From assembly GCA_020199905.1 (NCBI GenBank), contig JAIVJS010000001.1, forward strand, positions 61,069 to 125,068: a stretch of DNA of 64,000 nt, read 5' to 3'. The position numbers were made by a program, and so were the translations under genes. This document shows, piece after piece, positions 1 to 61,407 of this stretch. Numbering within the stretch: the stretch's first letter is position 1; each line of letters begins with the position of its first letter. Below the pieces are notes generated by a model. That model saw only the letters and a list, made by a program, of their open reading frames with translations. It was not told the DNA's origin and made no database searches. The stretch comes from Acidobacteriota bacterium (GTDB lineage: Bacteria > Acidobacteriota > Thermoanaerobaculia > UBA5066 > Gp7-AA6).

Positions 1-165
1 TATTGAGTTATCCGTCCTCAGTGAGAGTTCTCAGGCCGTGGCCGAAGATGGATTTTCGGCCGCGAAGGCCCTGCCGGCGAAGCAAAAACTGACCACTGAA
101 CACTGAGAACGGAGCACTCTTTCCCCCTTGCCTTTTTGCCTCGGATTTCGTAGAATTCACGTTCC

Positions 166-1029
166 TTGCCCAACCGATTCCGAATCGCCATTTCGGCGGC
201 GCTTTTCTTCATTCTTCTCGGACGCCTCGCCGGAACGCCCTCTGGATTTGCGCCGCTTTCGACGCTGATCGGCACGTCGGGAAAGCTGCGCGCCGTCTTC
301 ACTCTGCCGGGCGAGGTGCCCGTTTCCGAGATTCCCGCGGAGCCCCGCGCGCCCGGCGTGTATGCCATGGACGCGGTCGGAGCGGCAGGAGCGGCGCTGC
401 GGTGGATCGTGATGACCCCCTTCTCCGCCAAGGTCAACGGGCGGATCGGGCCCTACCGGATGGGCCACTGGCCTTTCGAAAACCGCGCCCCCGGCGACCC
501 CGCCTACGCCAGCCCGAGAGGGTTTGTGCAGGTCACACCGGACAACTTCGGCCTGAAGGTTTCGGAGCATTTCGCGCTCGGCCAGTTCGTCACCAAGAAC
601 CAGCCGAACGTGTGGCCCAAGTATGTGGCCCTCCAGCCGCGTCTCCTCGACAAGCTGGAGCTGACGATCGCGGAGTTGAACCGCGAAGGCTATCGGGTGA
701 AGGGTCTCTCCGTGATGAGCGGTTTCCGCACCCCCGATTACAACGAAGAGGGTGTCGGCGCCGGCGGCCGGTCCGCGGTCTCGCGGCACCAGTACGGCGA
801 CGCCGCGGACGTGTATCCGGACGATCTCGGCCGGGGGCGCATGAGCGACCTGAATCGCGACGGCCGCGTGGATCTCAAGGACGCGCACGTTCTCGCCCAC
901 GCCGCCGAGATGGTCGAGCTCTCCCACCCGGAGCTCACCGGTGGAATTGGCATCTACCCGGCGACGTCGGCGCACGGCCCCTTCGTGCACATCGACGCGA
1001 GAGGCAAGCGCGCCCGCTGGGGTGCTTAA
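166..1029 (+). CDS. Peptidase M15 family (D-Ala-D-Ala carboxypeptidase / YcbK-DUF882-like), membrane-anchored or secreted
   Basis: Track ORF with a TTG start; an in-frame TAG at 151 blocks further upstream extension. The N-terminus has a hydrophobic anchor (AISAALFFILLGRLAG). Zn-peptidase motifs SRHQYGDAADV and VHID are present. GC3 is high. Confidence 0.7.
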   Translation: MPNRFRIAISAALFFILLGRLAGTPSGFAPLSTLIGTSGKLRAVFTLPGEVPVSEIPAEPRAPGVYAMDAVGAAGAALRWIVMTPFSAKVNGRIGPYRMGHWPFENRAPGDPAYASPRGFVQVTPDNFGLKVSEHFALGQFVTKNQPNVWPKYVALQPRLLDKLELTIAELNREGYRVKGLSVMSGFRTPDYNEEGVGAGGRSAVSRHQYGDAADVYPDDLGRGRMSDLNRDGRVDLKDAHVLAHAAEMVELSHPELTGGIGIYPATSAHGPFVHIDARGKRARWGA

Positions 1030-1062
1030 GCCGCTTCTCTCGTTTCCCGAACCGGGTCGCTT

Positions 1063-1935
1063 CTAACCCGGCTTCTCCCACACCGACAGATCCTGGTAAC
1101 CGGCAAGGCCTTGCTCCTCGAATAAGCGCGGCGTCAGCTTTTTTCCCCAGACGCGCTCGACGCGGGATCGGGCCTCGAAGGCGGCGTCGTCGTTGAAGGT
1201 TCCTCCCCCGGGCGCAAAGAGAAAGCCGCGCTGGTTCATCTCGCGGTGCTGTTCGAAGGTCAGGTCCGGCCGGGTGAAGGTGAGCACCGTCGAAAGGGTG
1301 GACGCGATCAGGAGGCCGCCAGGGCAGAGCAGGCGGTCGAGCTCCTCGAGCCACGCCGATTCCATCGTCTCGTCGAAATGCGTGAAAACCGAGACGGCGT
1401 AGACGACGTCGAAGGAAGACGCGGGAACATTCGCCGGGGGAAGGCGGCCGCAGGCCACGAACCGGCCGGGCGGATGGGACGCGGCCAGCCAGCGGATCGC
1501 GTCCGCGTCGACGTCCACACCGTGGAGCTCGACCGCGGATCCCGAGCGCGCGACGTGTCGGGTGACCCTTCCGACGCCGCATCCGAAGTCGAGCCACCGC
1601 GCATACGGACGGCCGGGACGGCGGCAGATCTCGAAGGCCCGCAGCACGTCGGCGGCGGCCAGGGCTCCCGCGCGCTCGAACTCCCGCCGGCTGCTCGAGA
1701 GCGAGACGCGCGCCCGCAGCCGCGGGGGAGGAAGCCGGTTCGCCGTGCCCCGCAGGAGGTCGAAGGCGTCGGGAATCGCGTCCGTGAGACGCACCGGGCC
1801 CTCTCTCGCCCAGCGCCGCAGCCGGCGCCGCCACACGGCGGGGATGGCGTCCCGGACGCGGCGGCGAATGACCGCGAGAGAGCCCGTTTCGCGCGGCGGG
1901 TCGGCGGCGTCCGGGGTGGTGGAGGTCGTCGTCAT
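1063..1935 (-). CDS. Class I SAM-dependent methyltransferase
   Basis: Motif I LDFGCGVGR is present. I take the internal ATG at 1935 (MTTTSTTPD...) as the start; the Arg-rich N-terminal extension in the track ORF (to 2232) overlaps the neighbouring gene and reads as frame noise. The ATG overlaps the upstream gene's stop (ATGA on the minus strand, 1932-1935). Confidence 0.7.
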   Translation of the reverse strand: MTTTSTTPDAADPPRETGSLAVIRRRVRDAIPAVWRRRLRRWAREGPVRLTDAIPDAFDLLRGTANRLPPPRLRARVSLSSSRREFERAGALAAADVLRAFEICRRPGRPYARWLDFGCGVGRVTRHVARSGSAVELHGVDVDADAIRWLAASHPPGRFVACGRLPPANVPASSFDVVYAVSVFTHFDETMESAWLEELDRLLCPGGLLIASTLSTVLTFTRPDLTFEQHREMNQRGFLFAPGGGTFNDDAAFEARSRVERVWGKKLTPRLFEEQGLAGYQDLSVWEKPG

Positions 1936-2261
1936 CGAACGGTGGAGCGCTCCAGCGCACCCTCGCGGCGGTAGAGGAAGAGCGGCAGACCACAGGAAAC
2001 GCCGACCAGGCAGACCGCGGCGACCGGGATCCAGAGATGCGTCATTCCTAGCCGCCGTCCCTCGGCGAGGATGAAGCCGCAGACCACGACCGCCGAGACG
2101 AGGACGTCGAGGGCGAACGAGGCGGCGATCCGGTTGGCGAAGAGCTCCCGGACGAAGAGCGGCACGTCGATGCCGTGAGCCGCCAGCCACGGCAGGAACT
2201 GCGAGTACGGCAGGACGGATCCGAGGAGGCACAGGGCGAGATAGAAGTGGCGGCGCGTCAT
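1932..2261 (-). CDS. Small integral membrane protein (DUF2834-like)
   Basis: Starts MTRRHFYLALCLLG; an AGGAGGG Shine-Dalgarno sits 7 nt upstream of the ATG at 2261. Three hydrophobic helices. The track start at 2279 is a TTG 6 codons upstream. Confidence 0.6.
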   Translation of the reverse strand: MTRRHFYLALCLLGSVLPYSQFLPWLAAHGIDVPLFVRELFANRIAASFALDVLVSAVVVCGFILAEGRRLGMTHLWIPVAAVCLVGVSCGLPLFLYRREGALERSTVR

Positions 2262-2344
2262 CGATCCCTCCTGCGGCAAATCTTGCCGAGGAGTCTATGC
2301 GTCACGGCGTCCGCCCGCTTCCTGACCTCTGCTCTCTCGCCTCT

Positions 2345-2401
2345 GCTCCCTCGCCCCGGGCACGGGGAGCGGGGTTCGAACCCTCGTGTGCAACCGCCGA
2401 T
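2345..2401 (+). other. tRNA 3'-half-like fragment (variable arm + T-arm GGGGTTCGAACCC + acceptor-like 3' strand), not a complete tRNA
   Basis: The sequence CCCCGGGCACGGGG-AG-CGGGG-TTCGAAC-CCTCG-TGTGCAA-CC fits a variable arm, T stem-loop and acceptor 3' strand. No matching 5' acceptor, D-arm or anticodon arm lies upstream; instead there is a 14-nt tandem repeat (CCTCTGCTCTCTCG / CCTCTGCTCCCTCG). Confidence 0.3.
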
Positions 2402-2973
2402 CAGCCGCATACAATCTCGGTATCGCGGAGGTGCCCGCCATCGTCGCAGCCGGGGAAATCCCGCCGAACGCCGCATGGAGATCCGCCCTCTGGCAGCAGT
2501 CCGGCGCGGCGATCGACATGCTCGACAACGCCGTCGCCGCCTGTCCGGAGGCGCTGTGGAGCGACCGCTCGCAGACTCCCGCGTTCTGGTACGTCGCGTT
2601 CCACACGATCTTCTTTCTGGACTTCTATGTCAGTGAGTCGCCGGACGGATTCGCGCCTCCGTCCCCGTTCACTCTCTCGGAGTTCAACCCGGAGGGCGAG
2701 CTACCCGAGCGGCCTTACACGAAGCAGGAGCTCCGCGGCTATCTCCGCCACAGCCGGGAGAAGTGCCGGCGATCGATCGAAACGCTATCGGACGAACGCG
2801 CGAGAGAGCGAACCGGCTTTCTCGACGGTTCCCTCGGCAGGCTCGAGCTGCTGTTCTACAACCTCCGGCACGTTCAGCATCATGCCGGGCAGCTGAACCT
2901 CATCCTGCGGCAGAAGACACAGTCCGCTCCCAGGTGGGTGCTCCAAGCCAGGGAAGAGGCGGAGTCACCATGA
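2386..2973 (+). CDS. DinB/YfiT-like metal-dependent hydrolase family protein
   Basis: C-terminal motif LRHVQHHAGQL (HxxxHH) with an earlier His (AFHTIF). The start is uncertain: GTG 2386 (track) or ATG 2518. The stop overlaps the next gene's ATG (ATGA at 2970-2973). Confidence 0.6.
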   Translation: MCNRRSAAYNLGIAEVPAIVAAGEIPPNAAWRSALWQQSGAAIDMLDNAVAACPEALWSDRSQTPAFWYVAFHTIFFLDFYVSESPDGFAPPSPFTLSEFNPEGELPERPYTKQELRGYLRHSREKCRRSIETLSDERARERTGFLDGSLGRLELLFYNLRHVQHHAGQLNLILRQKTQSAPRWVLQAREEAESP

Positions 2974-3311
2974 CCGAAGACGACTTCCGCAAGATCGCTC
3001 TCTCGCTTCCCGAGGCGACCGAAAGCGCCCACATGCGCCATCCCGACTTCCGCGTCGGCGGAAAAATCTTCGCGACTCTGATGCCGGAGAAAGGCTGGGC
3101 GATGGTGAAGCTGACGCCCGAGGACCAGGAAGCCTTCATGCAGATCGCGCCGAAGGTCTTCTCGCCGGTCAACGGCGCCTGGGGCCGCCAGGGCGCGACG
3201 CGCGTTCACCTGAAGAGCGCGACGAAGACGGTCGCTCGCGACGGCCTCACGGCAGCCTGGCGTTTTCGCGCCCCGAAGTCTCTCGTCGCGCGCACCGACG
3301 CGGGGAAGTAA
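2970..3311 (+). CDS. MmcQ/YjbR family DNA-binding protein
   Basis: Starts MTEDDFRKIALSLPEATE...HPDFRVGGKIFATL, typical of YjbR/MmcQ (DUF419). SD-like GAGGCGGAG lies upstream. Confidence 0.65.
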   Translation: MTEDDFRKIALSLPEATESAHMRHPDFRVGGKIFATLMPEKGWAMVKLTPEDQEAFMQIAPKVFSPVNGAWGRQGATRVHLKSATKTVARDGLTAAWRFRAPKSLVARTDAGK

Positions 3312-3374
3312 GCGATCAGACCCGCGGAAGAGGACAACTCCGAGCGAGGCGCGCGGATAGAATCACCGGCGTCT

Positions 3375-3451
3375 GGGGCCGTAGCTCAGGTGGATAGAGC
3401 AAAAGTTTCCTAAACTTTAGGTCGGCGGTTCGAGTCCGCCCGGCCCCACCA
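3375..3451 (+). tRNA. tRNA-Arg (anticodon CCT)
   Basis: Hand-folded cloverleaf: acceptor GGGGCCG/CGGCCCC; D-arm GCTC...GAGC; anticodon stem AAAGT/ACTTT with loop TTCCTAA (anticodon CCT); T-arm GGCGG-TTCGAGT-CCGCC; discriminator A; encoded CCA. Confidence 0.9.
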
Positions 3452-3573
3452 TTTTCATCGCTTTCGCGCTAATTCGTGTGACACATATGTTCCATCGCTC
3501 CGCGGGGGCGGTCACAGACGCCAGTCTCTCCGACTCTTAACTCACAACTGAAGACTGCCAACTGAAAACTCTT

Positions 3574-4024
3574 TCAGAAGAGCGGCTCCGAGATCAGCTG
3601 CTGGCGGGTCACGGAAATGCACGAGCCCGTCATCTGGCCCACCTGGCAGCGGAGCTGGATCGCGACGAAAGTCCCGGACGTGTTGACGAGTCGCAGGCTC
3701 GCCCCCTGATAAGCGTTGACCGCCTGGATCCCGGTGGGCGCGGAGACGATCGTCCACTGCGCCGCCGACAGCTCGTTGTTGCAGACGGGCGTCCCGTTGC
3801 CACACGCTCGCCGCCATCGAGGCCGGCGTCGCCGTCACGGTGCTCACCACCGGGATGACGCCCATGACCTCGAAAATGCGGTTCGCCGCGATATTGAAAT
3901 CGACTCCGGTCGTCGCCGGGTTGGGAGACCCCGTGACCGCCGACGAGAGGGCGAACGTCGTGGCGGACGCCGTCGCCGAAACCAGGATCACGAGCGTCGC
4001 AAGACCGATAAGACGCAATTTCAT
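3574..4024 (-). pseudogene. Frameshifted paralog of the small secreted Cys-containing protein at 60925-61407
   Basis: The N-terminal part (signal peptide MKLRLIGLATLVILVSATASA...EVMGVIPVVSTVTATPASMAAS) is in the frame of track ORF 3542..4024. The homologous C-terminal part (ACGNGTPVCNNELSAAQWTIVSAPTGIQAVNAYQGASLRLVNTSGTFVAIQLRCQVGQMTGSCISVTRQQLISEPLF*) is in the next frame and ends at 3574-3576. The switch lies near 3795-3800. About 8 codons present in the paralog are also missing here. Confidence 0.55.
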
Positions 4025-4115
4025 CGCCTGTTCTCCTTATGAGCTCGAATCGGGAAGTCTGAGGCGTTACCGGTGGGTGGAGTCTAGCCGGGCCGCGTAA
4101 ACCGCGCCGCGCGAG

Positions 4116-4517
4116 TCAGCGGCGGCGGTGATCGACGAAGCGGATGCTGTTGCGGTCCGCGTCCTTCACGTACAGCTCGCGGGCCCCCCAGGTCTGGTCC
4201 ATCGGCCCGCTGTCGATCGGGACTCCCCGGGCGACGAGCTCGGCGTGTACCGCGTCCACGTCGTCGACTTCCAGATGCACGACGCCGCCCGAGACGCCAT
4301 CCCCCGAAAAGGACGACAGGTGCAGCCAGACGCCGTCGCGCGATACGCCGAAATAGCACGGGTCGGGTTTCGCCTCGTCGAGACGGTGCGCGAATCCCTT
4401 TCGAAAGCCGAGCCGGCCGCAATAGAACTCCGCCGCCGCCGCGGAGCTCTCGACGTGCAGGACCGGGATCGCGGCCAGCACCGACGCGCGTTTCGGCGGG
4501 TCTGTCCGGCCGGTCAC
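4116..4517 (-). CDS. VOC family protein (glyoxalase / bleomycin-resistance fold)
   Basis: 133 aa with the typical VOC pattern: HVESSAAAAEFYCGRLGF...VHLEVDDVDAVHAELVARGV. Confidence 0.7.
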   Translation of the reverse strand: MTGRTDPPKRASVLAAIPVLHVESSAAAAEFYCGRLGFRKGFAHRLDEAKPDPCYFGVSRDGVWLHLSSFSGDGVSGGVVHLEVDDVDAVHAELVARGVPIDSGPMDQTWGARELYVKDADRNSIRFVDHRRR

Positions 4518-4520
4518 CGG

Positions 4521-4994
4521 TCAATCGCCATCGGGTTCGGGAGGCGGTTCCAGCTTCTCGAGCTTCAGAAAGACGATCGACGGCTGGAGTCCCCTCGACC
4601 GCGATGAGCACTGGGAGACGGTGCTCACGGCGCGCCGAACCAGGTCGGAAAGGTCCAGCGTCGTTTTCAGGCTGGCGTTTCCGGGCCGGGAGTGGGCGGT
4701 CTTGTCGCGCACGCAGTCGAGCGTGTTGAAAGATTCGGGCCCGAGAGGGACGATCGCGGTCCGATAGCCGGGCATTGCCACGACGATCTCCATCTCCGTG
4801 ACGCCCGACGGGACGACGATCGCCCCGGGCGTGGTGATCTGCTGCCGCCCGGCCGTTGCCGTCGCGCCGGAAGGGTTCGTGATGACGGGGACTCTCTGCG
4901 CGGAGTCGGAGGACCGCGTCGAGGCACACCCGAGGAAGAGGAGAGCGCCGAGCGCGCCGAACGGAGAGCCTGCCCGCGACCCGCGGATGAGCAC
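4521..4994 (-). CDS. Putative lipoprotein with a PEGA-like domain
   Basis: Signal peptide with Cys (ALLFLGCAS); PEGA-like segment PSGATATAGRQQITTPGAIVVPSGVTEMEIVVAMPGYRTAIV. Confidence 0.5.
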   Translation of the reverse strand: MLIRGSRAGSPFGALGALLFLGCASTRSSDSAQRVPVITNPSGATATAGRQQITTPGAIVVPSGVTEMEIVVAMPGYRTAIVPLGPESFNTLDCVRDKTAHSRPGNASLKTTLDLSDLVRRAVSTVSQCSSRSRGLQPSIVFLKLEKLEPPPEPDGD

Positions 4995-5058
4995 GCCGGG
5001 ATTTTACGCCTCCGGCACGTTTCGGGCGCGGAGATCCGTCCCGAATGGCCGCCGAGCG

Positions 5059-5892
5059 TCAGCGCATCTTGAGAGCACGCCGCATCGCGCGATCGAAGGC
5101 GCGGTCCGTCAGCACCCGCTTCAGCGCAAACAGCACCCTGGGCATCCGGCCCACCGCGTACCGGGACTTCGGGCGCGGCGATTCGATCGCGTTCACGATG
5201 ACCCTCGCGACCGCTTCGGGCGGGAGAACGCCGGCCTGAAACTCCTTGCGCATCGCGCTCTCCGCGTTCCGATACACGTCCGAATACGGGCCCGGCCGGC
5301 CGAGGAGCGCCGACACGCCCTGCCGCGCCCGGTCGGAGAACCGGCTCTCGATCGGGCCCGGCTCGACGACGACGACCCGCACGCCGAACGCGCCCGCCTC
5401 GACCCGCAGCGCGTCCGAGACGGCTTCGAGGGCGTGCTTGGAGGCGCAGTACGGAGAGGCGAACGGGATCGGGATGCGGCCGGCCACGGAGGAGACGTTC
5501 ACGATCGTGCCCGAGCGGGCCTCACGCATCGCCGGAAGCACCGCGGAGATCATCGCGACCGCTCCGAAGACGTTGACCTCGAACTGCTCGCGCCAGTCGG
5601 CGACAGTCACCTCCTCGACCGCGCCGTAGCGGCCGAAACCCGCGTTGTTGACCAGCGCGTCGATGCGTCCTTCCCCCGAAAGCGCCGCGGAGACGGCGGC
5701 GGCGATGGACGCGGCGTCCGTCACGTCCAAGGGGAGCGTCCTGATTCCGGGACGGCCCTCGAGGTCTGAGAGGGAGCCGATATCCCGGGCGGTCGCGCAG
5801 ACGCGGTGGCCGCGCGCCGCCGCTTCGAGGGCCGCCGCGCGGCCGATCCCGGACGAGCAGCCTGTCACCAGAACGACCTGTCGGCGCGGCAC
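5059..5892 (-). CDS. SDR family NAD(P)-dependent oxidoreductase
   Basis: TGCSSGIGRAAAL (TGxxxGIG), NNAG, and the YxxxK catalytic motif (YCASK). Confidence 0.85.
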   Translation of the reverse strand: MPRRQVVLVTGCSSGIGRAAALEAAARGHRVCATARDIGSLSDLEGRPGIRTLPLDVTDAASIAAAVSAALSGEGRIDALVNNAGFGRYGAVEEVTVADWREQFEVNVFGAVAMISAVLPAMREARSGTIVNVSSVAGRIPIPFASPYCASKHALEAVSDALRVEAGAFGVRVVVVEPGPIESRFSDRARQGVSALLGRPGPYSDVYRNAESAMRKEFQAGVLPPEAVARVIVNAIESPRPKSRYAVGRMPRVLFALKRVLTDRAFDRAMRRALKMR

Positions 5893-5921
5893 GGCGCGAT
5901 GTTACCCTTCGGTTCGAAGCC

Positions 5922-6587
5922 ATGGGTTACGCCGACAAGAGCCTCGCGCCCGGCGAAACGATCCTCTACCGCGCCCGCTACCACTGGATCTTCTACAGGT
6001 CCGGTCTTCTCGTTCTCTTTCTCGCGGCGCTCCTCGGCGCGGCCTCGCTCTATGCCTCCCGCACGGCGCCCGGCAGCGAGATCGCGGCGCCGGTCGGATA
6101 TCTCGCCCTCGGTTTCGCGGTGCTCGCGCTGATGCTGCTCGGCGCCCGCTGGGTGCGCGCGCAGCAGGACGAGTTCGTCGTGACGGACCGCCGCGTGCTC
6201 CGCGCTGTGGGACTGATCACCCGCGAGCACGAGCAGGCGCCGATCGAGAAGATCCAGGACATCACCGTCACGCAGAGCGGTCTCGGCCGGCTTCTCGGGT
6301 ACGGGGATGTCGCGCTCGAGACCGCCTCCGAGCGGGGCACGCTCCTTTTCCCCGCGATCGCCACCCCCGAAGCCTTTCGCACCGCGATCTGGGGCCGGCC
6401 CAGAGGCGAAGCGGCAATCGGCCTTGCGATGCCGGCGGTGGCCGCCGGGCACGCCTCGGCCCCCGCGGCGGCTCCGGCCCCGACGGCTTCGAGCCGCCTC
6501 GAGCAGCTCGAGACTCTGCGGCGGAAGGGTATGGTTTCCGAGGCCGAGTATGCCGAGAAACGCCGCGAAATCCTGGCGCACCTGTGA
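5922..6587 (+). CDS. Membrane protein with a bacterial PH (bPH_2/YdbT-like) domain and a C-terminal SHOCT domain
   Basis: Two TM helices followed by a PH-like segment (DEFVVTDRRVLRAVGLITREHEQAPIEKIQDITV). The C-terminus LEQLETLRRKGMVSEAEYAEKRREIL matches the SHOCT signature. Confidence 0.6.
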   Translation: MGYADKSLAPGETILYRARYHWIFYRSGLLVLFLAALLGAASLYASRTAPGSEIAAPVGYLALGFAVLALMLLGARWVRAQQDEFVVTDRRVLRAVGLITREHEQAPIEKIQDITVTQSGLGRLLGYGDVALETASERGTLLFPAIATPEAFRTAIWGRPRGEAAIGLAMPAVAAGHASAPAAAPAPTASSRLEQLETLRRKGMVSEAEYAEKRREILAHL

Positions 6588-6652
6588 GACAGCGCGCCTG
6601 AGCCGTCCGGAACCGATGTAAACCGAACCGGATCCATCCTCGTCCAACCCAT

Positions 6653-7267
6653 GTGCCAGCGCTCGAAATGATCCCTCGCCAGACGGATCCCGGCGTCGAC
6701 GAAGCCCTCCTCATCCGGGAGGTCCGGGCAGGCAAGGTCGAGTCGTTCGAGTATTTCGTCCGGAAGTACCAGCGCCGCATCACGCGGCTGGCGTACCGGC
6801 TCCTCCGGGACGCCGGCGAAGCCGACTGCGCGGCCCAGGAGAGCTTCCTCCGCGCGTACCAGAACTTGAACGACTTCCGCGAGGGCTCGACGTTCGAGAC
6901 GTGGGTCACGCGGATTTGCATCAACTGGTGCAAGGACCGCCTGAAGCGGCGGCGGCTGGTCTTCTACTTTCATCAGGGCCCGGCGGAGAACGACGACGAC
7001 GAGTCGGGCCCGCGTGACGCGGCCGCCGGAGACGAGCCCTCTCCCGAGCGGCGCGCGATTTCCCGTGAGATCCGCGAGCGCCTCCGGCAGGCGATCGAGT
7101 CTCTCTCCCCGCGGCAGAAGAGCGTGTTCGTTCTGAAGCATTTCGAAGAGCTTTCGATCCCGGAGATCGCGGAGCTGACGGGCCTCGATTCGGGGACCGT
7201 CAAATCGCACCTCTTCCGAGCGGCCCACAAGATCCGTGAGCGGCTCGGCGAATTTCGGAAGGCATGA
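6653..7267 (+). CDS. ECF (sigma-70 family) RNA polymerase sigma factor
   Basis: Region 2 (FEYFVRKYQRRITRLAYRLLRD...AQESFLRAYQNLNDF) and region 4 (LSPRQKSVFVLKHFEELSIPEIAELTGLDSGTVKSHLFRA). Start is GTG 6653 or ATG 6668. Confidence 0.85.
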   Translation: MPALEMIPRQTDPGVDEALLIREVRAGKVESFEYFVRKYQRRITRLAYRLLRDAGEADCAAQESFLRAYQNLNDFREGSTFETWVTRICINWCKDRLKRRRLVFYFHQGPAENDDDESGPRDAAAGDEPSPERRAISREIRERLRQAIESLSPRQKSVFVLKHFEELSIPEIAELTGLDSGTVKSHLFRAAHKIRERLGEFRKA

Positions 7268-7268
7268 C

Positions 7269-7781
7269 ATGCACGAAGCCAGATCGACGATGCACCTGAC
7301 GGACGCTCAGCTGTTCGGGCTCGCCATCCCGGCGGCCGGCGTTCCCGAGGCGCTCCCGCCGCACCTCTCAGAATGCATCGCCTGCAGCCGCGCGCTCCAG
7401 ACGTGGAAAGGCGCCGTGGGGGAGATCGCCGGAGAGATGGGCCCGATCGGCGCGCGCACCCCGGAGGCGTGGGCCGACGCCGAAGACCTCACCATGCGCT
7501 CGATCCGGCGTGCCGGTTCCATTCGCCGCGGGACGCCGCTGCGCTGGGGCGTCGGAATCGCCGCCTCGCTCCTGCTGCTCGCGCTCGCGGTTCCGATGCG
7601 GCGCTCCGGCTCCGGCGCGCCTGCCGCGGCCACGCCGTCCGACCTTTCTCCTCAGGACCAGGCAGACGACGCTCTCCTGAGAGACGTCGCGCGGCTCGCC
7701 CGCGCCGAGGAGACGGGCGGATCCTGGGACGCTCTGGTCCCCCAGCCCGGGACCCAGACCCGCGACGAGGAGCGGCTGTGA
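7269..7781 (+). CDS. Anti-sigma factor, zinc-finger (HxxxCxxC) type with one TM helix
   Basis: Starts 1 nt after the sigma gene's stop. HLSECIACS motif. TM segment WGVGIAASLLLLALAV followed by a periplasmic tail. Confidence 0.7.
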   Translation: MHEARSTMHLTDAQLFGLAIPAAGVPEALPPHLSECIACSRALQTWKGAVGEIAGEMGPIGARTPEAWADAEDLTMRSIRRAGSIRRGTPLRWGVGIAASLLLLALAVPMRRSGSGAPAAATPSDLSPQDQADDALLRDVARLARAEETGGSWDALVPQPGTQTRDEERL

Positions 7782-8290
7782 GCTCGAACGGGAAGTCGAC
7801 GGCCCGCGTCCTCATTCTCGCCGCGGCCTTCGCCGGATTCGCCCTGCCCGCGGTGTCTCAGCAGGGATTTCCGGACGGCAAATGGTGGAAGCGGCCGAGG
7901 TTGATGGCCGAGATCAACCTCTCGTCCGAGCAGTCGCGCGAGATCGAGAAAATTTTCGTTCACTCCCGCACCCGCTTGATCGACCTGAAGGCGGACCTCG
8001 AGAAGAAGCAGCTCGCGCTCCAGTCGTCGATGGAGGACCGGGGGGCCGACCGCCGCGCCGTCGAGAAGGAGATCGAGCAGGTCGAGAACGCGCGGGCGGA
8101 GCTCCAGAAGGCGCGCGCCGTCATGGTTCTCGACATCAAGCAGGTCTTGAAGCCCGACCAGTGGGACCATCTCCTCCAGATGCAGCAGGAGATGAAGGAG
8201 CGCCGGATGATGGCGAAAGAAGGGCGGCAGAACGGGTACCGACAGGGGCCGGGGGGACAGAACCGCCCGCGCGCGCCGAGGGGCGAGTAG
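7778..8290 (+). CDS. Periplasmic Spy/CpxP/ZraP-family (LTXXQ) stress protein
   Basis: GTG start overlapping the anti-sigma stop (GTGA). Signal peptide ARVLILAAAFAGFALPAVSQQ. LTXXQ-like motifs (NLSSEQSREIEKIF; QVLKPDQWDHLLQMQQEM). Confidence 0.65.
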   Translation: MSSNGKSTARVLILAAAFAGFALPAVSQQGFPDGKWWKRPRLMAEINLSSEQSREIEKIFVHSRTRLIDLKADLEKKQLALQSSMEDRGADRRAVEKEIEQVENARAELQKARAVMVLDIKQVLKPDQWDHLLQMQQEMKERRMMAKEGRQNGYRQGPGGQNRPRAPRGE

Positions 8291-8335
8291 CCGTCAGCTC
8301 CGCTGTCAGCTCTCAGCCGTCAGCCAGAGGCCTCT
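8291..8335 (+). repeat. Heptamer array (GTCAGCT/CTCAGCC type) immediately after the stop of the Spy-like gene, followed by palindrome CCAGAGGCCTCTGG
   Basis: ccgtcag ctccgct gtcagct ctcagcc gtcagcc agaggcc, read directly. Confidence 0.6.
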
Positions 8336-8897
8336 GGTCCAACGGCGTCTCGAACTCTTCGTACTCGACCCGCAGCCGGGAGGCGAACTCGAGCATCGTG
8401 CGGCGGCGGTCCTCCGCGATCTCGCGCGCCTTCGGGGTTCGCAGCTCGACTCGCGCGGCCTCCTCGATCTCCGACGCCATCTCCAGGAAGTCGAGCCGCT
8501 CGCGGTATCCCTCGACGAGGCTTCTCGCGACTCCGTACGCGCCGAGGCGGTCGAGCCTCACGGCGTCGTGCACGATCGTTTCCTCCGGGGTGCGCGGGTC
8601 GGTGTCGAACCGCGTCAGGGAACGAAAGAGGGTCGAGATCGTCTTGTGGGGTACCCCCTCGGAGGCCAGGAACAGCTCGGTGCGGCTCCGGTGCCCCATC
8701 CGGGACACCCATTTCTCCTGCCCTGAAAAGACGGCGAGCAGAAAGAGCAGGTCCGGGTCGACGTCCGGTCGGTCGCCGGCGACCAGGACCGCGGCGGAAA
8801 CGGCGCGCCGGACGTCCCCGTAGTTCGTGACGCCGTCGAGCCCGACGGCCATGGGCCTGACGTACTCCTCGACGCGCTTTCGCCCGATGGGATCCAC
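8313..8897 (-). CDS. Hypothetical protein, possibly HD-domain-like
   Basis: Coding-like GC3. Segment ETIVHDAVRLDRLGAYGVARS resembles an HD-domain HD...D region. The assignment is weak. Confidence 0.4.
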   Translation of the reverse strand: MDPIGRKRVEEYVRPMAVGLDGVTNYGDVRRAVSAAVLVAGDRPDVDPDLLFLLAVFSGQEKWVSRMGHRSRTELFLASEGVPHKTISTLFRSLTRFDTDPRTPEETIVHDAVRLDRLGAYGVARSLVEGYRERLDFLEMASEIEEAARVELRTPKAREIAEDRRRTMLEFASRLRVEYEEFETPLDQRPLADG

Positions 8898-8975
8898 GCC
8901 GCGGATGCTACGTCAGCCGAACCGTTCTTCGGTCTCGCCGCGTTCCACCTGTCGACTGCCGCCTCGCGTCCTCCG

Positions 8976-9713
8976 TTAAATCACCCTTCCGCCGTCCACG
9001 CGGAGGATCTGCCCCGTGATGAAGGCCGGGCCCGAGCAGAGAAAGACGACCGCCTGCGCCACATCCTCCGGCGTCCCGTTCCGGCGCGCCGGAACCGACT
9101 TCGCCAGGCTCGCCTCGTCTTCCGGGAACGTCCCGTCCGGGGGAAGCACGACACCGGGAGCGACGCCGTTGACGGAAACTTCCGGCGCCAGCTCGATCGC
9201 GAGCGCGCGGACGAGCCCTTCGACCGCCGCCTTCGAGACGGAGTGCGCGAGGTAGTTGCGCACGGGCCGCGCGGCGAGAAAGTCGGAGATGAGGACGATC
9301 CGTCCCGCCCGCCGGCGCAGCATGGCAGCGGCGGCCCGCGACAGCAGGAACCCGGACCGGGCATTCACGTTCAGGGCGGAATCCCAAAGCGCCGGAGTGG
9401 TCTCCTCGATGGACGCGCGGTGGAAGTTCGAGGCCGAGTGGACGAGGAGGTCGAGTCCGCCGAGCACGCGCTCCGTTTCCGCCACGACGCGCTCGCACTC
9501 GGCGGGCTCCGCCAGGTCTCCCGCGATCCCCGCGGCGCGGCGGCCGAGCGCCCGGATGGTGGCGCACACCTCTTCCGCTCCCGAGGCCGAGGACCGGTAG
9601 TGCACCGCAACGTCGGCGCCCTCCACGGCCAGCGCGAGCGCGATGGCCCGGCCCACCCGGATTCCGGCGCCGGTCACGAGCGCGCCGCGGCCGGAAAGCG
9701 GCAGATCGGCCAT
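8976..9713 (-). CDS. SDR family oxidoreductase
   Basis: LVTGAGIRVGRAIALAL glycine-rich motif; YxxxK-like catalytic region (NYLAHSVSKAAVEGL); 245 aa. Confidence 0.85.
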   Translation of the reverse strand: MADLPLSGRGALVTGAGIRVGRAIALALAVEGADVAVHYRSSASGAEEVCATIRALGRRAAGIAGDLAEPAECERVVAETERVLGGLDLLVHSASNFHRASIEETTPALWDSALNVNARSGFLLSRAAAAMLRRRAGRIVLISDFLAARPVRNYLAHSVSKAAVEGLVRALAIELAPEVSVNGVAPGVVLPPDGTFPEDEASLAKSVPARRNGTPEDVAQAVVFLCSGPAFITGQILRVDGGRVI

Positions 9714-9776
9714 GCCGGATCGTAACCTTTCGGACGAAAAACCCGTATTCTGGGCAGGTTACGCGGAGGACCCGCC

Positions 9777-12700
9777 ATGAAGAGACTCGTCGCCCTTCTC
9801 GCCGCCTGTGCGGCTCTCGGCGCGGCGCCCGCGCGAGCCGGCTCCGTCTCCGGACGCCTGCTCGACGCCTCCGGGAAGCCCGCCCCGGGCGCCCGCGTCC
9901 AGTGGGTGGCGTATCGCACCGAGGACCAGGCCATCGTCGAAATGTCGGCTGCCTCCGAGCCGGCCGCGCTCGGCGAGACGAAGACCGGACCGGACGGCGC
10001 CTTCCGCGTGGCGGTCGACAAGCCGGACCTCGTGATCGGGCTGCGGGTTTTTCCGCCCGGCTCGCCCTCCGTGCGCTTCCGGGGACCGTTCGATTCGACC
10101 GAAGACGTCTCGCTCGAGGATATTCACGCCCTGGCCGGTGCCCGGCTCACCGGACGGATCGTCGACGACGAAGGCAAACCGGTCGCCGGCGCGCGCGTGC
10201 GGGCGGCAGGAACGGAGATTTTTTCGGACCAGGATTCCTCCACGCTCTCGGAGGCGAAGACAGGGGCGGACGGCACGTTCGCGATGGAGGCGGCGCCCGC
10301 CGGAGCCCGGACCATCGTGGCGCGCGCCCCCGGGCTCGTCCAGGTGTCGCTCTTCCAGATGGACCCGAAGCCGGACGTGAAGCTGACGCTCAAACAGGGA
10401 GGAACGATCCGCGGTGTCGTCCTCGACCCAACGGGAAAGGCCGCCGCGGGCGCGATCGTCATTTCCGAAGATCAGGGAGCGGAATCCGGTCCCGACGGGA
10501 CCTTCCGCCTCGCGGGCGTCGAGCCCGGAGTGCGGAACATCCAGGCGGTCTGGAAAGAGGACTTCGCCGTCCGGCGGGACAACCTCCGCGTCAAGCGCGG
10601 CCAGGAGGTCGAAGTGCCGCTGAAGCTCGCGCGCGCCGCGGCGATCGCCGGAACGGTGATCGACGAAGCGACGAGGAAGCCGCTGGCCGGCGCGCGGCTT
10701 GCCGCCTCTTCCGCCGGACCCGCGTTCGGCCTCCGCCGGGCCGAGAGGAGGGTGCGCGCGGATGCGAAGGGGAAGTTCCGGTTGAACGGCCTCGCGCCGC
10801 GTCCGTATGCGGTCACGGGGTCGCGAGAGGGATATCTCGCCTCGGTGATCAACGGCGTCTCCGCCGGGACGGCGGCTCCAGGAACCGTCGCCCTGGCGCT
10901 CGCGAAGGCCGCGAGTGTCGCCGGGAAAGTCGTCGACGAAAAGGGCCAGCCGGTGGCCGGCGCGAACGTTCACTTCGCCCTCGAGGGGGGAATGCGCGGC
11001 TTCCTGCGCCGCGGGCCGTCAACCCTGATGGGCGCGCGGGGCGCCTTCACTGCGGCTGATGGAACCTTCCGGCTGCGCAATCTCGCGGCGGGGCGGAACA
11101 TGATTCTCGAAGCGGGGAAGCCGGGCTACACCGACGCGCGGCGCACCGGCCTCACGTTGAAGACGGGAGACGCGCTGGCCAATGTCTCTCTCACGCTGAA
11201 GAAGGGCCTCGAGGCGCGCGGCAAGGTGGTCGACGGCGAAGGAAAGCCAATACCGGAGGCGGAGGTCCGGGTCGCCGTGCGCGAAGGACGGGGCGGAGGC
11301 ATGGGCAACGTGCGCCAGCAGATCCGGATGGTGGGCATGGACGACAGCAAACCCGACGCCGTCTCGGGACCGGACGGCACCTTCGTCGTGCGAGGTCTCG
11401 AACCGGGCGAGTACAGCGCGGTCGTCGCGCGGGACGGGTACGCGAGGAAGAGCGCGTCGAATCTGGCCGTCGCGCCTGCCGCGGACAATGTGTGGCCTCC
11501 GATCACGCTCGTCAACGGCGCCGCGATCTCGGGATTCGTGCGCGACTCCCAGGGGCAGCCGATCGCCGGCGCGCAGATCTTCGGGTTCTCGATGGCGGAT
11601 GGAATGCGGCCGCAGAGCGTGGCGTCCGACGTGGACGGGCGCTTCCGGCTCGACGGCCTGACGGCGGACAGGTCCCTCTTCGTGAGCCTGACGGCGGCGG
11701 GCTTCGCCCAGACGCAGAAGAGCCTGACGCCCCCGGTGCAGGACGTCGTGATCGTCCTGAAGACGGCGGGGACGATCCGCGGCCACGTGGAGGACGGGGA
11801 CACGAAGAGGCCGATCATCGATTTTTCCGTCGGGCGCAGCGGCCCGCGGGGAGGCGGATTCAATTTCCAGGCGGGCGGGCAGGGGGGCGACAAGGCGTTC
11901 CAGTCCGAGGACGGCTCCTTCGACCTGCCGGACGTCCCCGCGGGAAAGTGGACCGTCCGGGCGACCGCGTCCGGATACCGCAACGGCGAGACGTCGGGCG
12001 TCGAGCTCGGCGAGGGGGAGACGAAAGAAGGCGTCGTCGTCTCCCTGCGCAAAGGCGGCTCGCTTTCCGGGCGTGTCCTCGACCCGAAGAAAGGCACGGG
12101 CGTGCCGAACGCGTCCGTGAGCTGGCAGGCCGCGGGCTCCTCCGGCGGCGGTCCCGGCGCGATGTTTGCCCGGATGGCGGGCGGCGCCGCGAATACCGCG
12201 ACGAATACGGACGCCGACGGGCGATTTCGGTTCGACGGCCTTCCCGAGGGACGGGTCACACTGGTCGCGGACCACCCGGATTACCTCGAGACCAGCCGCG
12301 ACGTGGATCCCGAAAAAGACACGAACGTCGACATCGCGCTCGGAACGGGTGGCGCGATCTCGGGGACCGTCGTCGATCGCGACGGCCGCACTCCGATGGC
12401 CGGGGCTCTCGTCGCGTTGAACGAAGAAGGGGATGCGGGAATGTTCGGCGGAGGAGACTCCACGCGGACGGACGGCTCGGGAGTGTTTTCCTTCGAGCAC
12501 CTGAAGGCGGGGCGATTCAAAGTGTCGGCGCAGTCCGCGGCCGGCAAGTCGGCGCCGAAGGAAGTGATCCTCGCCGAAAATCAGCGGCAGGACGGCGTCC
12601 TGATCGGGATGGTCGCCGCGGGTTCGACGGTCCGGGGTACGGTGTCGGGATTGCCCCGGGGCAAGCTCGGGGGGCTTCGCGTTTTCGCCAACGGAAAGGA

Positions 12701-13877: not shown

Positions 13878-13998
13878 AGGGGTGAGAGGGTCGGGAATCG
13901 AGAGCCGAGCGACCAACGGGAGCAAGACGGCCGCGGTACTCCGCGGTCAACGCGCTCGGGAATAAGAGAGGAGCGGTCTTCTCCGGCCCCTGGGGCTC

Positions 13999-14040
13999 GG
14001 TATTGAAGACTCAACGCTGAACGCTCAACGCTCAACCAGC
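13999..14040 (+). repeat. Heptamer array (GCTCAAC x4) in the spacer after the giant CarbopepD_reg gene
   Basis: actcaac gctgaac gctcaac gctcaac cagctcc. Confidence 0.6.
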
Positions 14041-60500: not shown

Positions 60501-60852
60501 GTACACCCCGGTGGCCTGCGCGCCGGGCGATTCGACGCTCTGCATGAACGGCGGCCGCTTTCGCGCTCAGGTCGTCTGGCGTGTTCCGACGCAGAACGCG
60601 GCCGGCCTCGCCTCGGCGGTCGCCCTGACCGGCGATACGGGCTATTTCTGGTTCTTCTCGTCGAACAACATCGAGCTCGTCGTGAAAGTCGTCGACGGCC
60701 GAGGCTTCAATGGCAAATTCTGGGTGTTCTACGGCGCTCTCTCGAACGTGGAGTACACCCTGACCGTCACGGACATCGTGACGGGAGCGGTCCGCGTCTA
60801 CACGAATCCCAGCGGGTTACTGTCGAGCGTCGCGGACACCTCCGCGTTCTAG
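57538..60852 (+). CDS. Large extracellular multidomain protein: about 10 BNR/Asp-box (SxDxGxTW) repeats, PKD domain, PPC-like domain, IPT/TIG domain, and a conserved C-terminal domain of unknown function
   Basis: Repeated TTDGGASW / STDGGATW / TVDGGATW motifs. PKD-like VTDPDPGDTASGTWFFPD...GSFPVALSARDSRGALG. IPT-like TTVLITGSGFQNDATVSFGGVAGTDVVVLAPTLLSVRTPAHAPGDVDVSV. The track start is GTG 57538. An in-frame ATG (57193) and a Tat-like signal peptide lie upstream, separated from the ORF by a TAG at 57220-57222 (see findings). Confidence 0.8.
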   Translation: MGGSTWVSLGPTNGAGRMTGISPHPTDVGTVLAGAAGGGVWKTTDGGASWVSLTDGLNDLSVGAVAYAPSSPNVVYLGTGEGSYAVDFIPGIGLLKSTDGGATWTLPSSVLASRFHRINVHPTNPNELLVGTSRGALRSTDGGASWETVISPTAYGDVPEILRDPTDPRNLFATTWCISGGCTFKTAHVLKSTDGGATWTDRSFGLPTANPSDFAYERTALALSPSNTSVLYAARSVRPAAGTIISHVYRTVDGGATWTDLPSVSARNSRYLADQSWYNNTIIVSPTDSNTVIAGGTRYLRSTDGGANFTPVLDGEVHVDAHDLRYQGSTLWFANDGGVWTSVDDGISSTDRNNGLVTRQYYALAIDPINRNRILAGAQDNGTNQRMDGGGTVWRPVIGSDGFECVVNPFSPAIAWGSTQQGQIFRSRNVGASTDPSFQSVTPPYDANEETPFLTVLRNDPRAPQTIYTGSYRLWRSRDGGTVWVPLPTTTTDGSAWPRSTTVTSLALSRTDPLLILVGKENGIYRSGDGGQTWTPATGVPDRVLTNLEIDPTNSGIAYATFSAITLPSVYRSVDGGLTWAPSASGLPAFPSQVIRVDPTDSNVVFVGTDVGVFRSPDRGATWSRFGTGLPSSSVHDLQVLDDGSMLRVATHGRGIWELQVPATGNNPPVPTVVAPASSIAVPLGTTVSFSGTVTDPDPGDTASGTWFFPDTSENIPLPGGAGTVAHTFRRAGSFPVALSARDSRGALGTAVVQVSVTDSGDACATPVVIPSNGPFPYAVLASSESATTEATDPSPSCWVSAKAASLWFEYTPPADGQYEISTCGSAPDTVLSVFTGAACGPYTPVSGGCNDDAPASSGCGTQASLVTVTGRAGQTFRIQATGFDESSLGSFALNVRPISVPASSPRVGGVNAGEGPAPGGTTVLITGSGFQNDATVSFGGVAGTDVVVLAPTLLSVRTPAHAPGDVDVSVTSGGGTGTLSRAFAFTPYTPVACAPGDSTLCMNGGRFRAQVVWRVPTQNAAGLASAVALTGDTGYFWFFSSNNIELVVKVVDGRGFNGKFWVFYGALSNVEYTLTVTDIVTGAVRVYTNPSGLLSSVADTSAF

Positions 60853-60924: not shown

Positions 60925-61407
60925 ATGAAATTCCGTTCCGGCGCCCCGGCGGTCCTGGTCCTCCTCGCGCTCCTCGTCTCGTCAACGACCCTCGCCAGCA
61001 CGGGCGTCATCTCCGTCACGATCACGGGGACCACGACTCCGCCGCCGAACCCGCTGACTCTCAGTTTTTTCAATAACACCACGCTGGAGGTGATGGCGGC
61101 GCTCCCGGTCGTCAGCACGGTGACGGGCAGCCCTGCTTCGATCGCGGCTTCCCTGAACATGGGAACGACCCTTTTCAACACCTGCGGCAGCACGGCGTGC
61201 AGCGGCGATCTCTGGGCGGGGCAGTGGACGATCGTTTCTGCTCCGACGGGGATACAGGCGGTGGCCGCGTATCAGGGATCTTCGATCAGGCTCGTCAACA
61301 ATTCGGGCTCGAGCGTCAACCTCACCCTGCGTTGTCAGGTGGGGAACATGACCGGCTCCTGCATCTTTCTCATCCGCATCACGCCGATCAGCGACCCCCT
61401 GTTCTGA
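60925..61407 (+). CDS. Small secreted Thr/Ser-rich protein with four conserved Cys; intact member of a paralog family
   Basis: ATG at 60925 with AAGGAG 7 nt upstream (the track's earlier start at 60895 lies inside a hairpin). Signal peptide MKFRSGAPAVLVLLALLVSSTTLAS. Cys pairs at NTCGSTAC and RCQVGNMTGSC. Paralogous to 3574-4024 and to the remnant at 61521. Confidence 0.65.
   Translation: MKFRSGAPAVLVLLALLVSSTTLASTGVISVTITGTTTPPPNPLTLSFFNNTTLEVMAALPVVSTVTGSPASIAASLNMGTTLFNTCGSTACSGDLWAGQWTIVSAPTGIQAVAAYQGSSIRLVNNSGSSVNLTLRCQVGNMTGSCIFLIRITPISDPLF

What the first reader, a model, noticed from the sequence alone, without database searches (positions are those of the whole stretch)
3574..4024. 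Frameshifted, internally deleted paralog of a small secreted Cys-protein, located directly 3' of tRNA-Arg
The N-terminal 85 residues and the C-terminal 75 residues both match the intact paralog at 60925-61407 (for example EVMGVIPVVSTVTATPASMAAS against EVMAALPVVSTVTGSPASIAAS, and IQLRCQVGQMTGSCISVTRQQLISEPLF against LTLRCQVGNMTGSCIFLIRITPISDPLF). They lie in different reading frames, and about 8 codons are missing at the join (around 3795). The cause is gene decay, a sequencing error, or a programmed shift. The position next to a tRNA gene is typical for laterally acquired cargo. The family has no recognizable domain.
Basis: seen in the sequence. Interest (0 to 1): 0.5.

Follow-up and report, generated by a model that had tools for sequence, protein, structure and literature searches.

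The report
Pseudogene of small secreted protein family
One copy of a small secreted protein gene, from a family found only in some uncultured Acidobacteria, was broken by a 32-base deletion and is decaying; this is an ordinary pseudogene, not a programmed frameshift or a recently imported gene.

Summary
Window 3574-4024 (- strand) is a member of a ~160-aa secreted, four-Cys protein family. Its two halves lie in different frames, and the intact paralog is at 60925-61407 (51% identity, E 2e-46). Aligning the DNA with the intact ortholog in a related Thermoanaerobaculia MAG (89% aa identity, same neighbours, same tRNA-Arg(CCT)) shows a single lesion: a 32-nt deletion at window 3804|3805. It removes about 10 codons of the family's hypervariable Cys loop and also shifts the frame. 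An outgroup copy has the full loop, so the deletion is derived. The identical broken ORF is on record on three contigs, and the one compared base by base differs from the window only by SNPs, so an assembly error is unlikely. This copy alone has radical substitutions (W->S, F->S, G->A) at otherwise invariant positions. Pairwise dN/dS is still low (0.11 and 0.18), so the inactivation is recent. No slippery site and no conserved shift were found, so a programmed frameshift is rejected. No integrase, att repeat or compositional anomaly was found and synteny is conserved, so lateral cargo is not supported here. The family has about 40 proteins, no Pfam match and a predicted jelly-roll fold. About 7 of 31 copies examined are broken. 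Family copies sit next to tRNA genes more often than chance would predict, and this is unexplained. Interest is low.

The parts
3806..4024 (-). N-terminal part of the broken gene: ATG, a Sec-type signal peptide (MKLRLIGLATLVILVSATASA, with an AxA cleavage site inferred by eye) and the first strands up to ...PASMAAS (codons 1-73), in the frame of the start codon
   Evidence: 92% aa identity to the same part of ortholog P0020
3804..3805 (-). Deletion junction. 32 nt present in the ortholog (TATACGTCGGGATTGGCGGAACCTTCAACGGC, coding V-YVGIGGTFNG) are missing between these two bases. Base 3805 is the orphan first base of the former Val codon. The junction can be placed 1 nt either way because of a shared T.
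   Evidence: DNA alignment A2, coordinates; outgroup L010 has the full loop
3574..3804 (-). C-terminal part in the original (+1) frame: CGNGTPVCNNELSAAQWTIVSAPTGIQ...CQVGQMTGSCISVTRQQLISEPLF plus TGA (3574-3576). As the sequence stands it is no longer translated in this frame.
   Evidence: GC3 is 0.91 in this frame, but the frame actually read has 0.50 at codon position 3. W->S and F->S occur at invariant columns.
3542..3573 (-). Read-through tail: the shifted frame runs 32 nt past the original stop to a new TGA, giving the annotated 160-aa chimeric ORF 3542-4024
4033..4038 (-). Shine-Dalgarno-like AAGGAG, 8 nt upstream of the ATG, still intact
   Evidence: read from the sequence; conserved in the ortholog alignment
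3375..3451 (+). tRNA-Arg(CCT), convergent with the broken gene. It is a neighbour, not part of the gene.
   Evidence: ARAGORN, Rfam tRNA 68.6 bits; same tRNA at the same place in the ortholog locus
60925..61407 (+). Intact paralog (P0001, 160 aa, NCBI LC796_00590), directly downstream of a 1104-aa BNR/Sortilin-PKD-TIG protein

Best explanation
Window 3574-4024 is a recently inactivated gene copy (a unitary pseudogene) of a multi-copy family of about 160-aa Sec-secreted, disulfide-containing jelly-roll proteins, found so far only in Acidobacteriota (Thermoanaerobaculia) MAGs. One 32-nt deletion inside the segment coding the family's hypervariable Cys loop removed about 10 codons and shifted the frame. 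Translation from the intact RBS and ATG now gives the signal peptide, roughly the first four strands, and then 87 residues of Arg/Pro/Gly/Asp-rich out-of-frame sequence. Such a product cannot complete the eight- or nine-strand sandwich. The copy is drifting: it has lost an invariant Trp, Phe and Gly. Shown here: the homology, the deletion and its polarity, its presence in more than one assembly, and the conserved synteny. Inferred: loss of function, relaxed selection, secretion, disulfides and the jelly-roll fold. The family as a whole turns over by birth and death: it forms tandem clusters, has dispersed single copies, and about a quarter of the copies examined are broken.
For: Homology of both halves to the paralog. 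The family has 24 close members, all in Acidobacteria MAGs. Ortholog P0020 is 89% identical, and its locus has the same tRNA-Arg(CCT), YjbR, DinB_2 and adh_short neighbours. The DNA alignment shows one gap of exactly 32 nt and is otherwise collinear at about 90% identity. The outgroup L010 copy has the full loop, so the deletion is derived. L004 (GCA_046262695.1) carries the same deletion with 0 gaps over 14 kb but 19 SNPs, one of them inside the gene (3977). The identical broken product has three NCBI accessions on three contigs. This copy alone has W->S and F->S at columns invariant in all 24 intact members, plus G->A at another invariant column; its ortholog has no such change. Relative rate against the outgroup: 10 amino-acid changes on the window lineage against 3 on the ortholog lineage, with synonymous-codon changes 14 against 10. 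dN/dS is 0.106 (N part) and 0.179 (C part) with dS about 0.4, and GC3 in the original frame is 0.85-0.91, so the gene was under selection until recently. Other copies are broken at other positions (1-nt deletion, nonsense codon, multiple shifts). The AF2 model (pLDDT 79.6) places the deleted residues at the end of strand 71-78 and in the low-confidence loop 79-94.
Against: No reads could be inspected. The three assemblies may derive partly from the same or related samples, so their independence is not proven. I aligned only one of the other assemblies (L004) base by base. The excess of amino-acid changes is only suggestive (binomial p = 0.09). Pairwise dN/dS is still well below 1, so relaxed selection rests mainly on three radical substitutions. 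Non-function of the truncated product is inferred, not tested.
Confidence: 0.85

Rival explanations
1. Assembly or sequencing artefact: the real genome carries an intact gene, and the 32-nt gap comes from misassembly in a multi-copy family or from a collapsed strain variant.
For: All sources are short-read MAGs. The family has several paralogs per genome with highly conserved stretches that could confuse a de Bruijn graph. Another indel between assemblies lies nearby: 259 nt in the BNR gene.
Against: The gap is 32 nt, not a homopolymer slip, and no repeat flanks it that could cause a collapse. The same junction appears in an assembly that differs from the window by SNPs, one of them inside the gene, and the identical product is recorded on three contigs. 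An artefact would not explain the W->S, F->S and G->A changes at invariant positions of this copy only.
Confidence: 0.07
2. Programmed +1 ribosomal frameshift (or another recoding event) that still yields a full-length protein with a shortened loop.
For: RBS and ATG are intact. Both halves keep a coding-like signature, with GC3 of 0.85 and 0.91 in their own frames. L025 also has a shift in the same loop.
Against: The ortholog, the outgroup and 24 family members are single uninterrupted ORFs. The shift was created by a derived deletion. The join (GCG AGC G|TG TGG CAA) has no slippery heptamer, no in-frame stop and no hungry-codon context. Breaks in other copies are at other positions and of other kinds. 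Even a rescued product would lack two nearly invariant loop residues and the invariant Trp and Phe.
Confidence: 0.02
3. On origin, compatible with the pseudogene reading: the copy is old cargo of an integrative element that once targeted the 3' end of tRNA-Arg, and the element itself has eroded away.
For: The gene lies 123 nt from the 3' end of the tRNA. Family copies lie within 170 nt of four different tRNAs (Arg-CCT, Gly-CCC, Glu-CTC, Asn-GTT), against about 2% expected. At tRNA-Glu (L022) there are tandem tRNA fragments like those left by integration events. Three of the four tRNA-adjacent positions hold a broken copy in at least one genome.
Against: At this locus there is no integrase, transposase or phage gene within 10 kb on either side, and no repeat of the tRNA 3' end in 64 kb. 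GC3 is host-like. Both flanks are collinear with a related species at 85-87% nt identity. Orientation relative to the tRNA differs between loci.
Confidence: 0.1

Closest known systems
Ordinary bacterial pseudogenes in multigene families (birth-and-death evolution of paralogous secreted or surface proteins)
   Same: A disabling frameshift deletion relative to an intact ortholog. The RBS and start are retained. Radical substitutions have begun to accumulate. Many other broken copies exist in the family, along with tandem clusters and dispersed single copies.
   Different: Nothing essential differs. The only peculiarity is that the high G+C content keeps the wrong frame open, so the lesion is hidden from gene callers and the ORF is annotated as a normal protein.
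[not shown]
   Same: The predicted eight- or nine-strand jelly-roll topology of the intact family members.
   Different: Sequence identity is 5-14%, and there is no profile match (Pfam, NCBIfam, PHROGs, PDB sequences). These proteins are bacterial, Sec-secreted and contain Cys. The matches show a shared fold class only.
Ena endospore-appendage subunits (DUF3992; PDB 7a02, 9i0y, 8pdz), the disulfide-linked jelly-roll pilus subunits of Bacillus
   Different: The scores are weak. There is no sequence relationship. The Cys pattern differs: here it is two local pairs (Cx4-6C in a loop and Cx8C in a hairpin), not an N-terminal connector. No Ena-type operon is present. Any fibre-forming role is speculation.
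tRNA-linked genomic islands
   Same: Position immediately 3' of a tRNA gene, and a family-wide excess of tRNA neighbours.
   Different: All the defining features tested were absent at this locus: integrase, att direct repeat, atypical composition and a synteny break.

Membership tests
Pseudogene (disabled copy of a protein-coding gene) | Clear homology to a functional gene family over both sides of the lesion | tested here: met
   tblastn/blastp E 7e-32 and 2e-46 to the paralog; 89% aa identity to ortholog P0020
Pseudogene (disabled copy of a protein-coding gene) | A disabling mutation that is derived relative to the intact ortholog and an outgroup | tested here: met
   A 32-nt deletion (not a multiple of 3) in alignment A2; outgroup L010 and all intact members have the loop
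Pseudogene (disabled copy of a protein-coding gene) | The lesion is real in the genome, not an artefact | tested here: inconclusive
   Same junction in an assembly that differs by 19 SNPs per 14 kb. The identical product is on three contigs with three accessions. Reads were not available.
Pseudogene (disabled copy of a protein-coding gene) | Relaxed selective constraint after inactivation | tested here: inconclusive
   W->S, F->S and G->A at invariant columns in this copy only. Amino-acid changes are 10 against 3 with the outgroup, p = 0.09. Pairwise dN/dS is still 0.11-0.18, which fits a recent event.
Pseudogene (disabled copy of a protein-coding gene) | No functional product is made | not testable with these tools
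   Needs a transcriptome, a proteome or genetics
Programmed ribosomal frameshift gene | The frameshift is conserved in orthologs | tested here: not met
   The ortholog (L001), the outgroup (L010) and 24 family members are single ORFs
Programmed ribosomal frameshift gene | A slippery or shift-prone motif at the frame junction | tested here: not met
   The junction reads GCG AGC G|TG TGG CAA: no X XXY YYZ heptamer and no stop or rare-codon pause site (sequence)
tRNA-linked genomic island | An integrase or recombinase gene next to the tRNA | tested here: not met
   The neighbours are YjbR, DinB_2, DUF2834 and a methyltransferase on one side, and glyoxalase, a 157-aa unknown, adh_short, bPH_2 and an ECF sigma factor on the other
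tRNA-linked genomic island | A direct repeat of the tRNA 3' end marking the far border | tested here: not met
   No second match to the 25-nt 3' end with up to 3 mismatches in 64 kb. blastn-short finds only chance 9-15-mers. The repeat finder finds nothing relevant.
tRNA-linked genomic island | Atypical composition or codon usage | tested here: not met
   GC3 is 0.85-0.91 against 0.84-0.90 for the neighbouring genes; there is only a mild dip in total GC
tRNA-linked genomic island | Presence or absence polymorphism, or a synteny break, in related genomes | tested here: not met
   Same gene at the same site with collinear flanks in GCA_038203955.1. More distant genomes were not examined.
Any described protein family (Pfam, NCBIfam, PHROGs, PDB sequences) | A significant profile match | tested here: not met
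   0 hits at E<=1 in Pfam and NCBIfam. No PHROG hit for the close family. Only chance hits to PDB sequences, E>=0.17.

The most novel reading that the evidence does not exclude
The broken gene belongs to an undescribed, lineage-restricted family of secreted, disulfide-stabilised jelly-roll proteins with a hypervariable Cys loop. The family turns over quickly (about a quarter of copies are broken). It has a conserved 'home' cluster beside a glycosyltransferase/methyltransferase operon and a trypsin-like protease. Its dispersed copies lie next to tRNA genes far more often than chance predicts. Together these could point to a surface or extracellular structure under diversifying pressure whose gene copies spread through a tRNA-associated mechanism, such as small integrative elements or co-transcription with tRNAs.
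Probability: 0.15. Interest if true: 0.45.

Novelty: new member of a known kind. Interest (0 to 1): 0.17.

Why it matters
The practical consequence is for annotation. In this high-G+C genome the frameshifted ORF stays open for exactly 160 aa, so public records list a chimeric product (half real protein, half out-of-frame sequence) as a normal hypothetical protein under three accessions. It has also entered clustered protein databases as its own representative. Biologically this is one more example of gene decay in a fast-turnover paralog family of uncultured Thermoanaerobaculia. The family itself has no described domain, a predicted jelly-roll fold, a hypervariable Cys loop, a home cluster next to glycosyltransferases and an excess of tRNA neighbours. 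It is a modest lead for anyone studying the cell surface of Acidobacteriota, but nothing here bears on a long-standing open question.

Tried and rejected
- Profile searches of the intact and rejoined proteins found nothing: Pfam, NCBIfam, PHROGs and PDB sequences.
- The exhaustive profile search of 1.84 billion representatives found 16 hits. One was the broken ORF itself. Another was a 1396-aa repeat protein (P0038, E 1e-5), which I take to be a low-complexity resemblance (VLPSVTTSATPAS against VIPVVSTVTGAPAS), not homology.
- I searched JGI metagenome contigs for an intact allele, using the 64-nt left flank of the deletion, and then for further family loci. Both scans found nothing.
- I looked for att-like repeats of the tRNA, promoter or terminator consensus sites, and Rfam elements between the gene and the tRNA. 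Only the tRNA itself was found.
- I considered slipped-strand deletion between direct repeats. In the ortholog the deleted segment is flanked by at most 1 nt of microhomology, so no mechanism can be named.
- I considered a recurrent frameshift hotspot in the loop, because L025 also shifts there. I rejected it because the other broken copies break elsewhere and by other kinds of mutation.

Full report
**Observation**

On the - strand of the window an ATG at 4024 opens a 160-aa ORF (3542-4024). Its first 73 residues (MKLRLIGLATLVILVSATASATTF...EVMGVIPVVSTVTATPASMAAS) resemble the intact 160-aa ORF at 60925-61407. After residue 73 the similarity moves to the +1 frame (CGNGTPVCNNELSAAQWTIVSAPTGIQAVNAYQG...LRCQVGQMTGSCISVTRQQLISEPLF, then TGA at 3574-3576).

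tblastn of the intact paralog hits the two pieces in two frames with a joint E of 7e-32. The rejoined protein is 51% identical to the paralog (blastp 2e-46). Nothing else in the 64 kb matches. ARAGORN and Rfam place tRNA-Arg(CCT) at 3375-3451 (+), 123 nt from the original stop and convergent with the gene.

**What the lesion is**

A search of 5.8 billion proteins found only 24 relatives, all unnamed proteins of Acidobacteria MAGs. One of them, P0020, is 89% identical to the rejoined protein. Its locus (L001, a Thermoanaerobaculia MAG, GCA_038203955.1) has the same neighbours: adh_short, a roughly 157-aa unknown protein, the family gene, tRNA-Arg(CCT), YjbR, DinB_2, DUF2834 and a methyltransferase. 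It is collinear with the window at 85-87% nt identity on both sides.

The nucleotide alignment of the two genes is gap-free except for one block. The window lacks exactly 32 nt (TATACGTCGGGATTGGCGGAACCTTCAACGGC) between + strand positions 3804 and 3805. So the 'missing codons' and the 'frameshift' are the same event. A more distant copy (L010, 79% identical) also has the full loop, so the deletion is derived in the window's lineage. At most 1 nt of microhomology flanks the deleted block, so no slippage mechanism can be named.

**Real or artefact**

I could not inspect reads. Three lines of evidence argue against an artefact.

- Another assembly (GCA_046262695.1, locus L004) matches window 1-14024 with 19 mismatches and no gaps. 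One mismatch lies inside the gene, at 3977. That assembly therefore carries the same junction on a slightly different haplotype or consensus.
- The exact 160-aa chimeric product is recorded under three NCBI accessions on three contigs, as 'hypothetical protein LC796_00335'.
- A third assembly of the same population (GCA_020200255.1) differs from the window by SNPs and a 259-nt indel elsewhere, so these are not copies of one assembly.

The lesion is also 32 nt long rather than a homopolymer slip. I rate an artefact at about 7%.

**Signs of decay**

In the 24-member alignment, W97, F148 and G68 (P0001 numbering) are invariant. The window copy alone has Ser, Ser and Ala at these columns. Its ortholog has no such change.

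With L010 as outgroup, 10 amino-acid replacements map to the window lineage and 3 to the ortholog lineage. Changes in synonymous codons are 14 and 10 (binomial p = 0.09, suggestive only).

Pairwise dN/dS against the ortholog is 0.106 upstream of the junction and 0.179 downstream, with dS about 0.4. Each half keeps GC3 of 0.85-0.91 in its original frame. The frame now read after the junction has its G+C peak at codon position 1 (0.86) and only 0.50 at position 3. The gene was therefore under purifying selection for most of the time since the two species split, and it was inactivated recently.

**Programmed frameshift**

I reject this reading. The shift was created by a derived deletion. Orthologs and paralogs are single ORFs. 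The junction (GCG AGC G|TG TGG CAA) has no slippery or pause motif.

Broken copies elsewhere in the family break in different ways:

- a 1-nt deletion at residue 52, and a copy with several lesions (L021)
- a TGG->TGA change at the invariant Trp, plus an altered start (L022)
- a shift near residue 105 with the terminal Phe lost (L023/L024)
- two shifts (L025)

By my count 7 of 31 non-redundant copies in the fetched loci are broken (with manual checks).

**Lateral cargo**

This is not supported at this locus. There is no integrase, transposase or phage gene within about 10 kb. There is no second copy of the tRNA 3' end or other att-like repeat. Codon usage matches the host genes, and synteny with a related species is conserved.

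**The family**

An exhaustive profile search of 1.84 billion cluster representatives gave 16 hits. A profile that included the most distant members gave about 40 proteins, all 'hypothetical' and all from Acidobacteriota or Thermoanaerobaculia MAGs. Pfam, NCBIfam, PHROGs and PDB sequence searches are empty.

Members are 150-165 aa long. They have a Sec-type signal peptide (AxA site, by eye), an invariant PVV.TV..PAS strand, QWTIVS.P.GIQ, a CxVGxMTGSC hairpin and an invariant C-terminal [DE]PxF. The loop between PASMAAS and QWTIV varies in length and carries a second Cys pair that is not conserved in the distant subfamily. The deletion lies in this loop.

In three genomes the family has a conserved cluster: a methyltransferase and GT1/GT4/GT2 operon, then 2-6 family genes of two subfamilies, then a Trypsin_2 protease on the opposite strand, then another family gene, then large FG-GAP proteins. 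My working guess is a secreted, possibly glycosylated and oligomeric surface or extracellular component with a variable exposed loop. This is inference only.

**Unexplained side observation**

Family copies lie within 170 nt of a tRNA gene at four different paralog positions:

- Arg-CCT (this locus)
- Gly-CCC (L017/L018)
- Glu-CTC (L022, which also has tandem tRNA fragments)
- Asn-GTT (L023/L024)

A fifth copy is 1.1 kb from tRNA-Thr. About 2% of genes flank a tRNA (my estimate from typical tRNA and gene counts), so 4 of about 19 positions is far above expectation (roughly p < 1e-3, post hoc). The tRNA-adjacent copies are scattered over the family tree, and their orientation relative to the tRNA varies. 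Three of the four positions hold a broken copy in at least one genome. I could not find a cause.

**Verdict**

This is a genuine but ordinary finding: a recent pseudogene made by one 32-nt deletion in an uncharacterised, lineage-restricted secreted protein family. Public records annotate it as a normal protein. Confidence is 0.85 and interest is low (0.17).

Noticed in passing
window 3375-4024; L017 5001-5661; L018 4995-5673; L022 4626-5480; L023 ~845-1546; L010 5001-6630: Family copies sit within 170 nt of four different tRNA genes (Arg-CCT, Gly-CCC, Glu-CTC, Asn-GTT), and one more is 1.1 kb from tRNA-Thr. This is far more than the roughly 2% expected for random genes. The adjacent copies are scattered over the family tree, and three of the four positions hold broken copies in at least one genome.
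   Followed up: partly
L022 4626-4950: Downstream of a complete tRNA-Glu(CTC) there are two further partial, degenerate copies of the tRNA (anticodon arm to 3' end), each preceded by the same roughly 35-nt spacer. They end just upstream of a family copy that has a TGG->TGA nonsense codon. This looks like scars of repeated integration or duplication at this tRNA.
   Followed up: no
window 3542-4024 (-): The shifted frame stays open in this 68% G+C genome, so the chimeric 160-aa ORF is deposited as an ordinary 'hypothetical protein' (LC796_00335; MCA1579843.1, MCA1609447.1, MFN2632892.1). It also stands as its own cluster representative (P0032) in protein databases.
   Followed up: yes
window 59712-59970 (inside the 1104-aa BNR/Sortilin-PKD-TIG gene 57538-60852): The near-identical assembly GCA_020200255.1 (L006) lacks these 259 nt, and its gene is split into 780-aa and 236-aa ORFs. 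The segment is not a tandem repeat of its flanks. It is either a strain-level deletion or an assembly difference.
   Followed up: partly
L021/L026, L011/L027, L028: A conserved 'home' cluster of the family occurs in three genomes: a methyltransferase and GT1/GT4/GT2 operon, 2-6 family genes of two subfamilies (QWTIV type and GQFTV type), a Trypsin_2 protease on the opposite strand, another family gene, then large FG-GAP proteins. L021 alone holds six copies, three of them broken.
   Followed up: partly
L021 5130-5145; L023 1065-1546; L025 1-563: Further broken family copies: a single-G deletion at GAG GTC (L021); a frameshift near residue 105 with DPLF changed to DPLL, seen in an NCBI MAG and a Logan assembly (L023/L024); and two frameshifts plus Cys->Arg on a 563-nt contig (L025). 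About 7 of 31 non-redundant copies examined are disabled.
   Followed up: partly
window 4521-4994 (-): A 157-aa ORF with a signal-peptide-like N-terminus and no Pfam or PHROG match lies two genes upstream of the pseudogene and is conserved in the ortholog locus (a 159-aa ORF in L001).
   Followed up: no
P0038 (1396 aa, from the representative search): A large repeat protein with eight copies of a roughly 70-aa unit (…VIDVLPSVTTSATPASDAGTYEI…) matched profile positions 7-77 at E 1e-5. I judge this a compositional or short-motif resemblance rather than homology.
   Followed up: no
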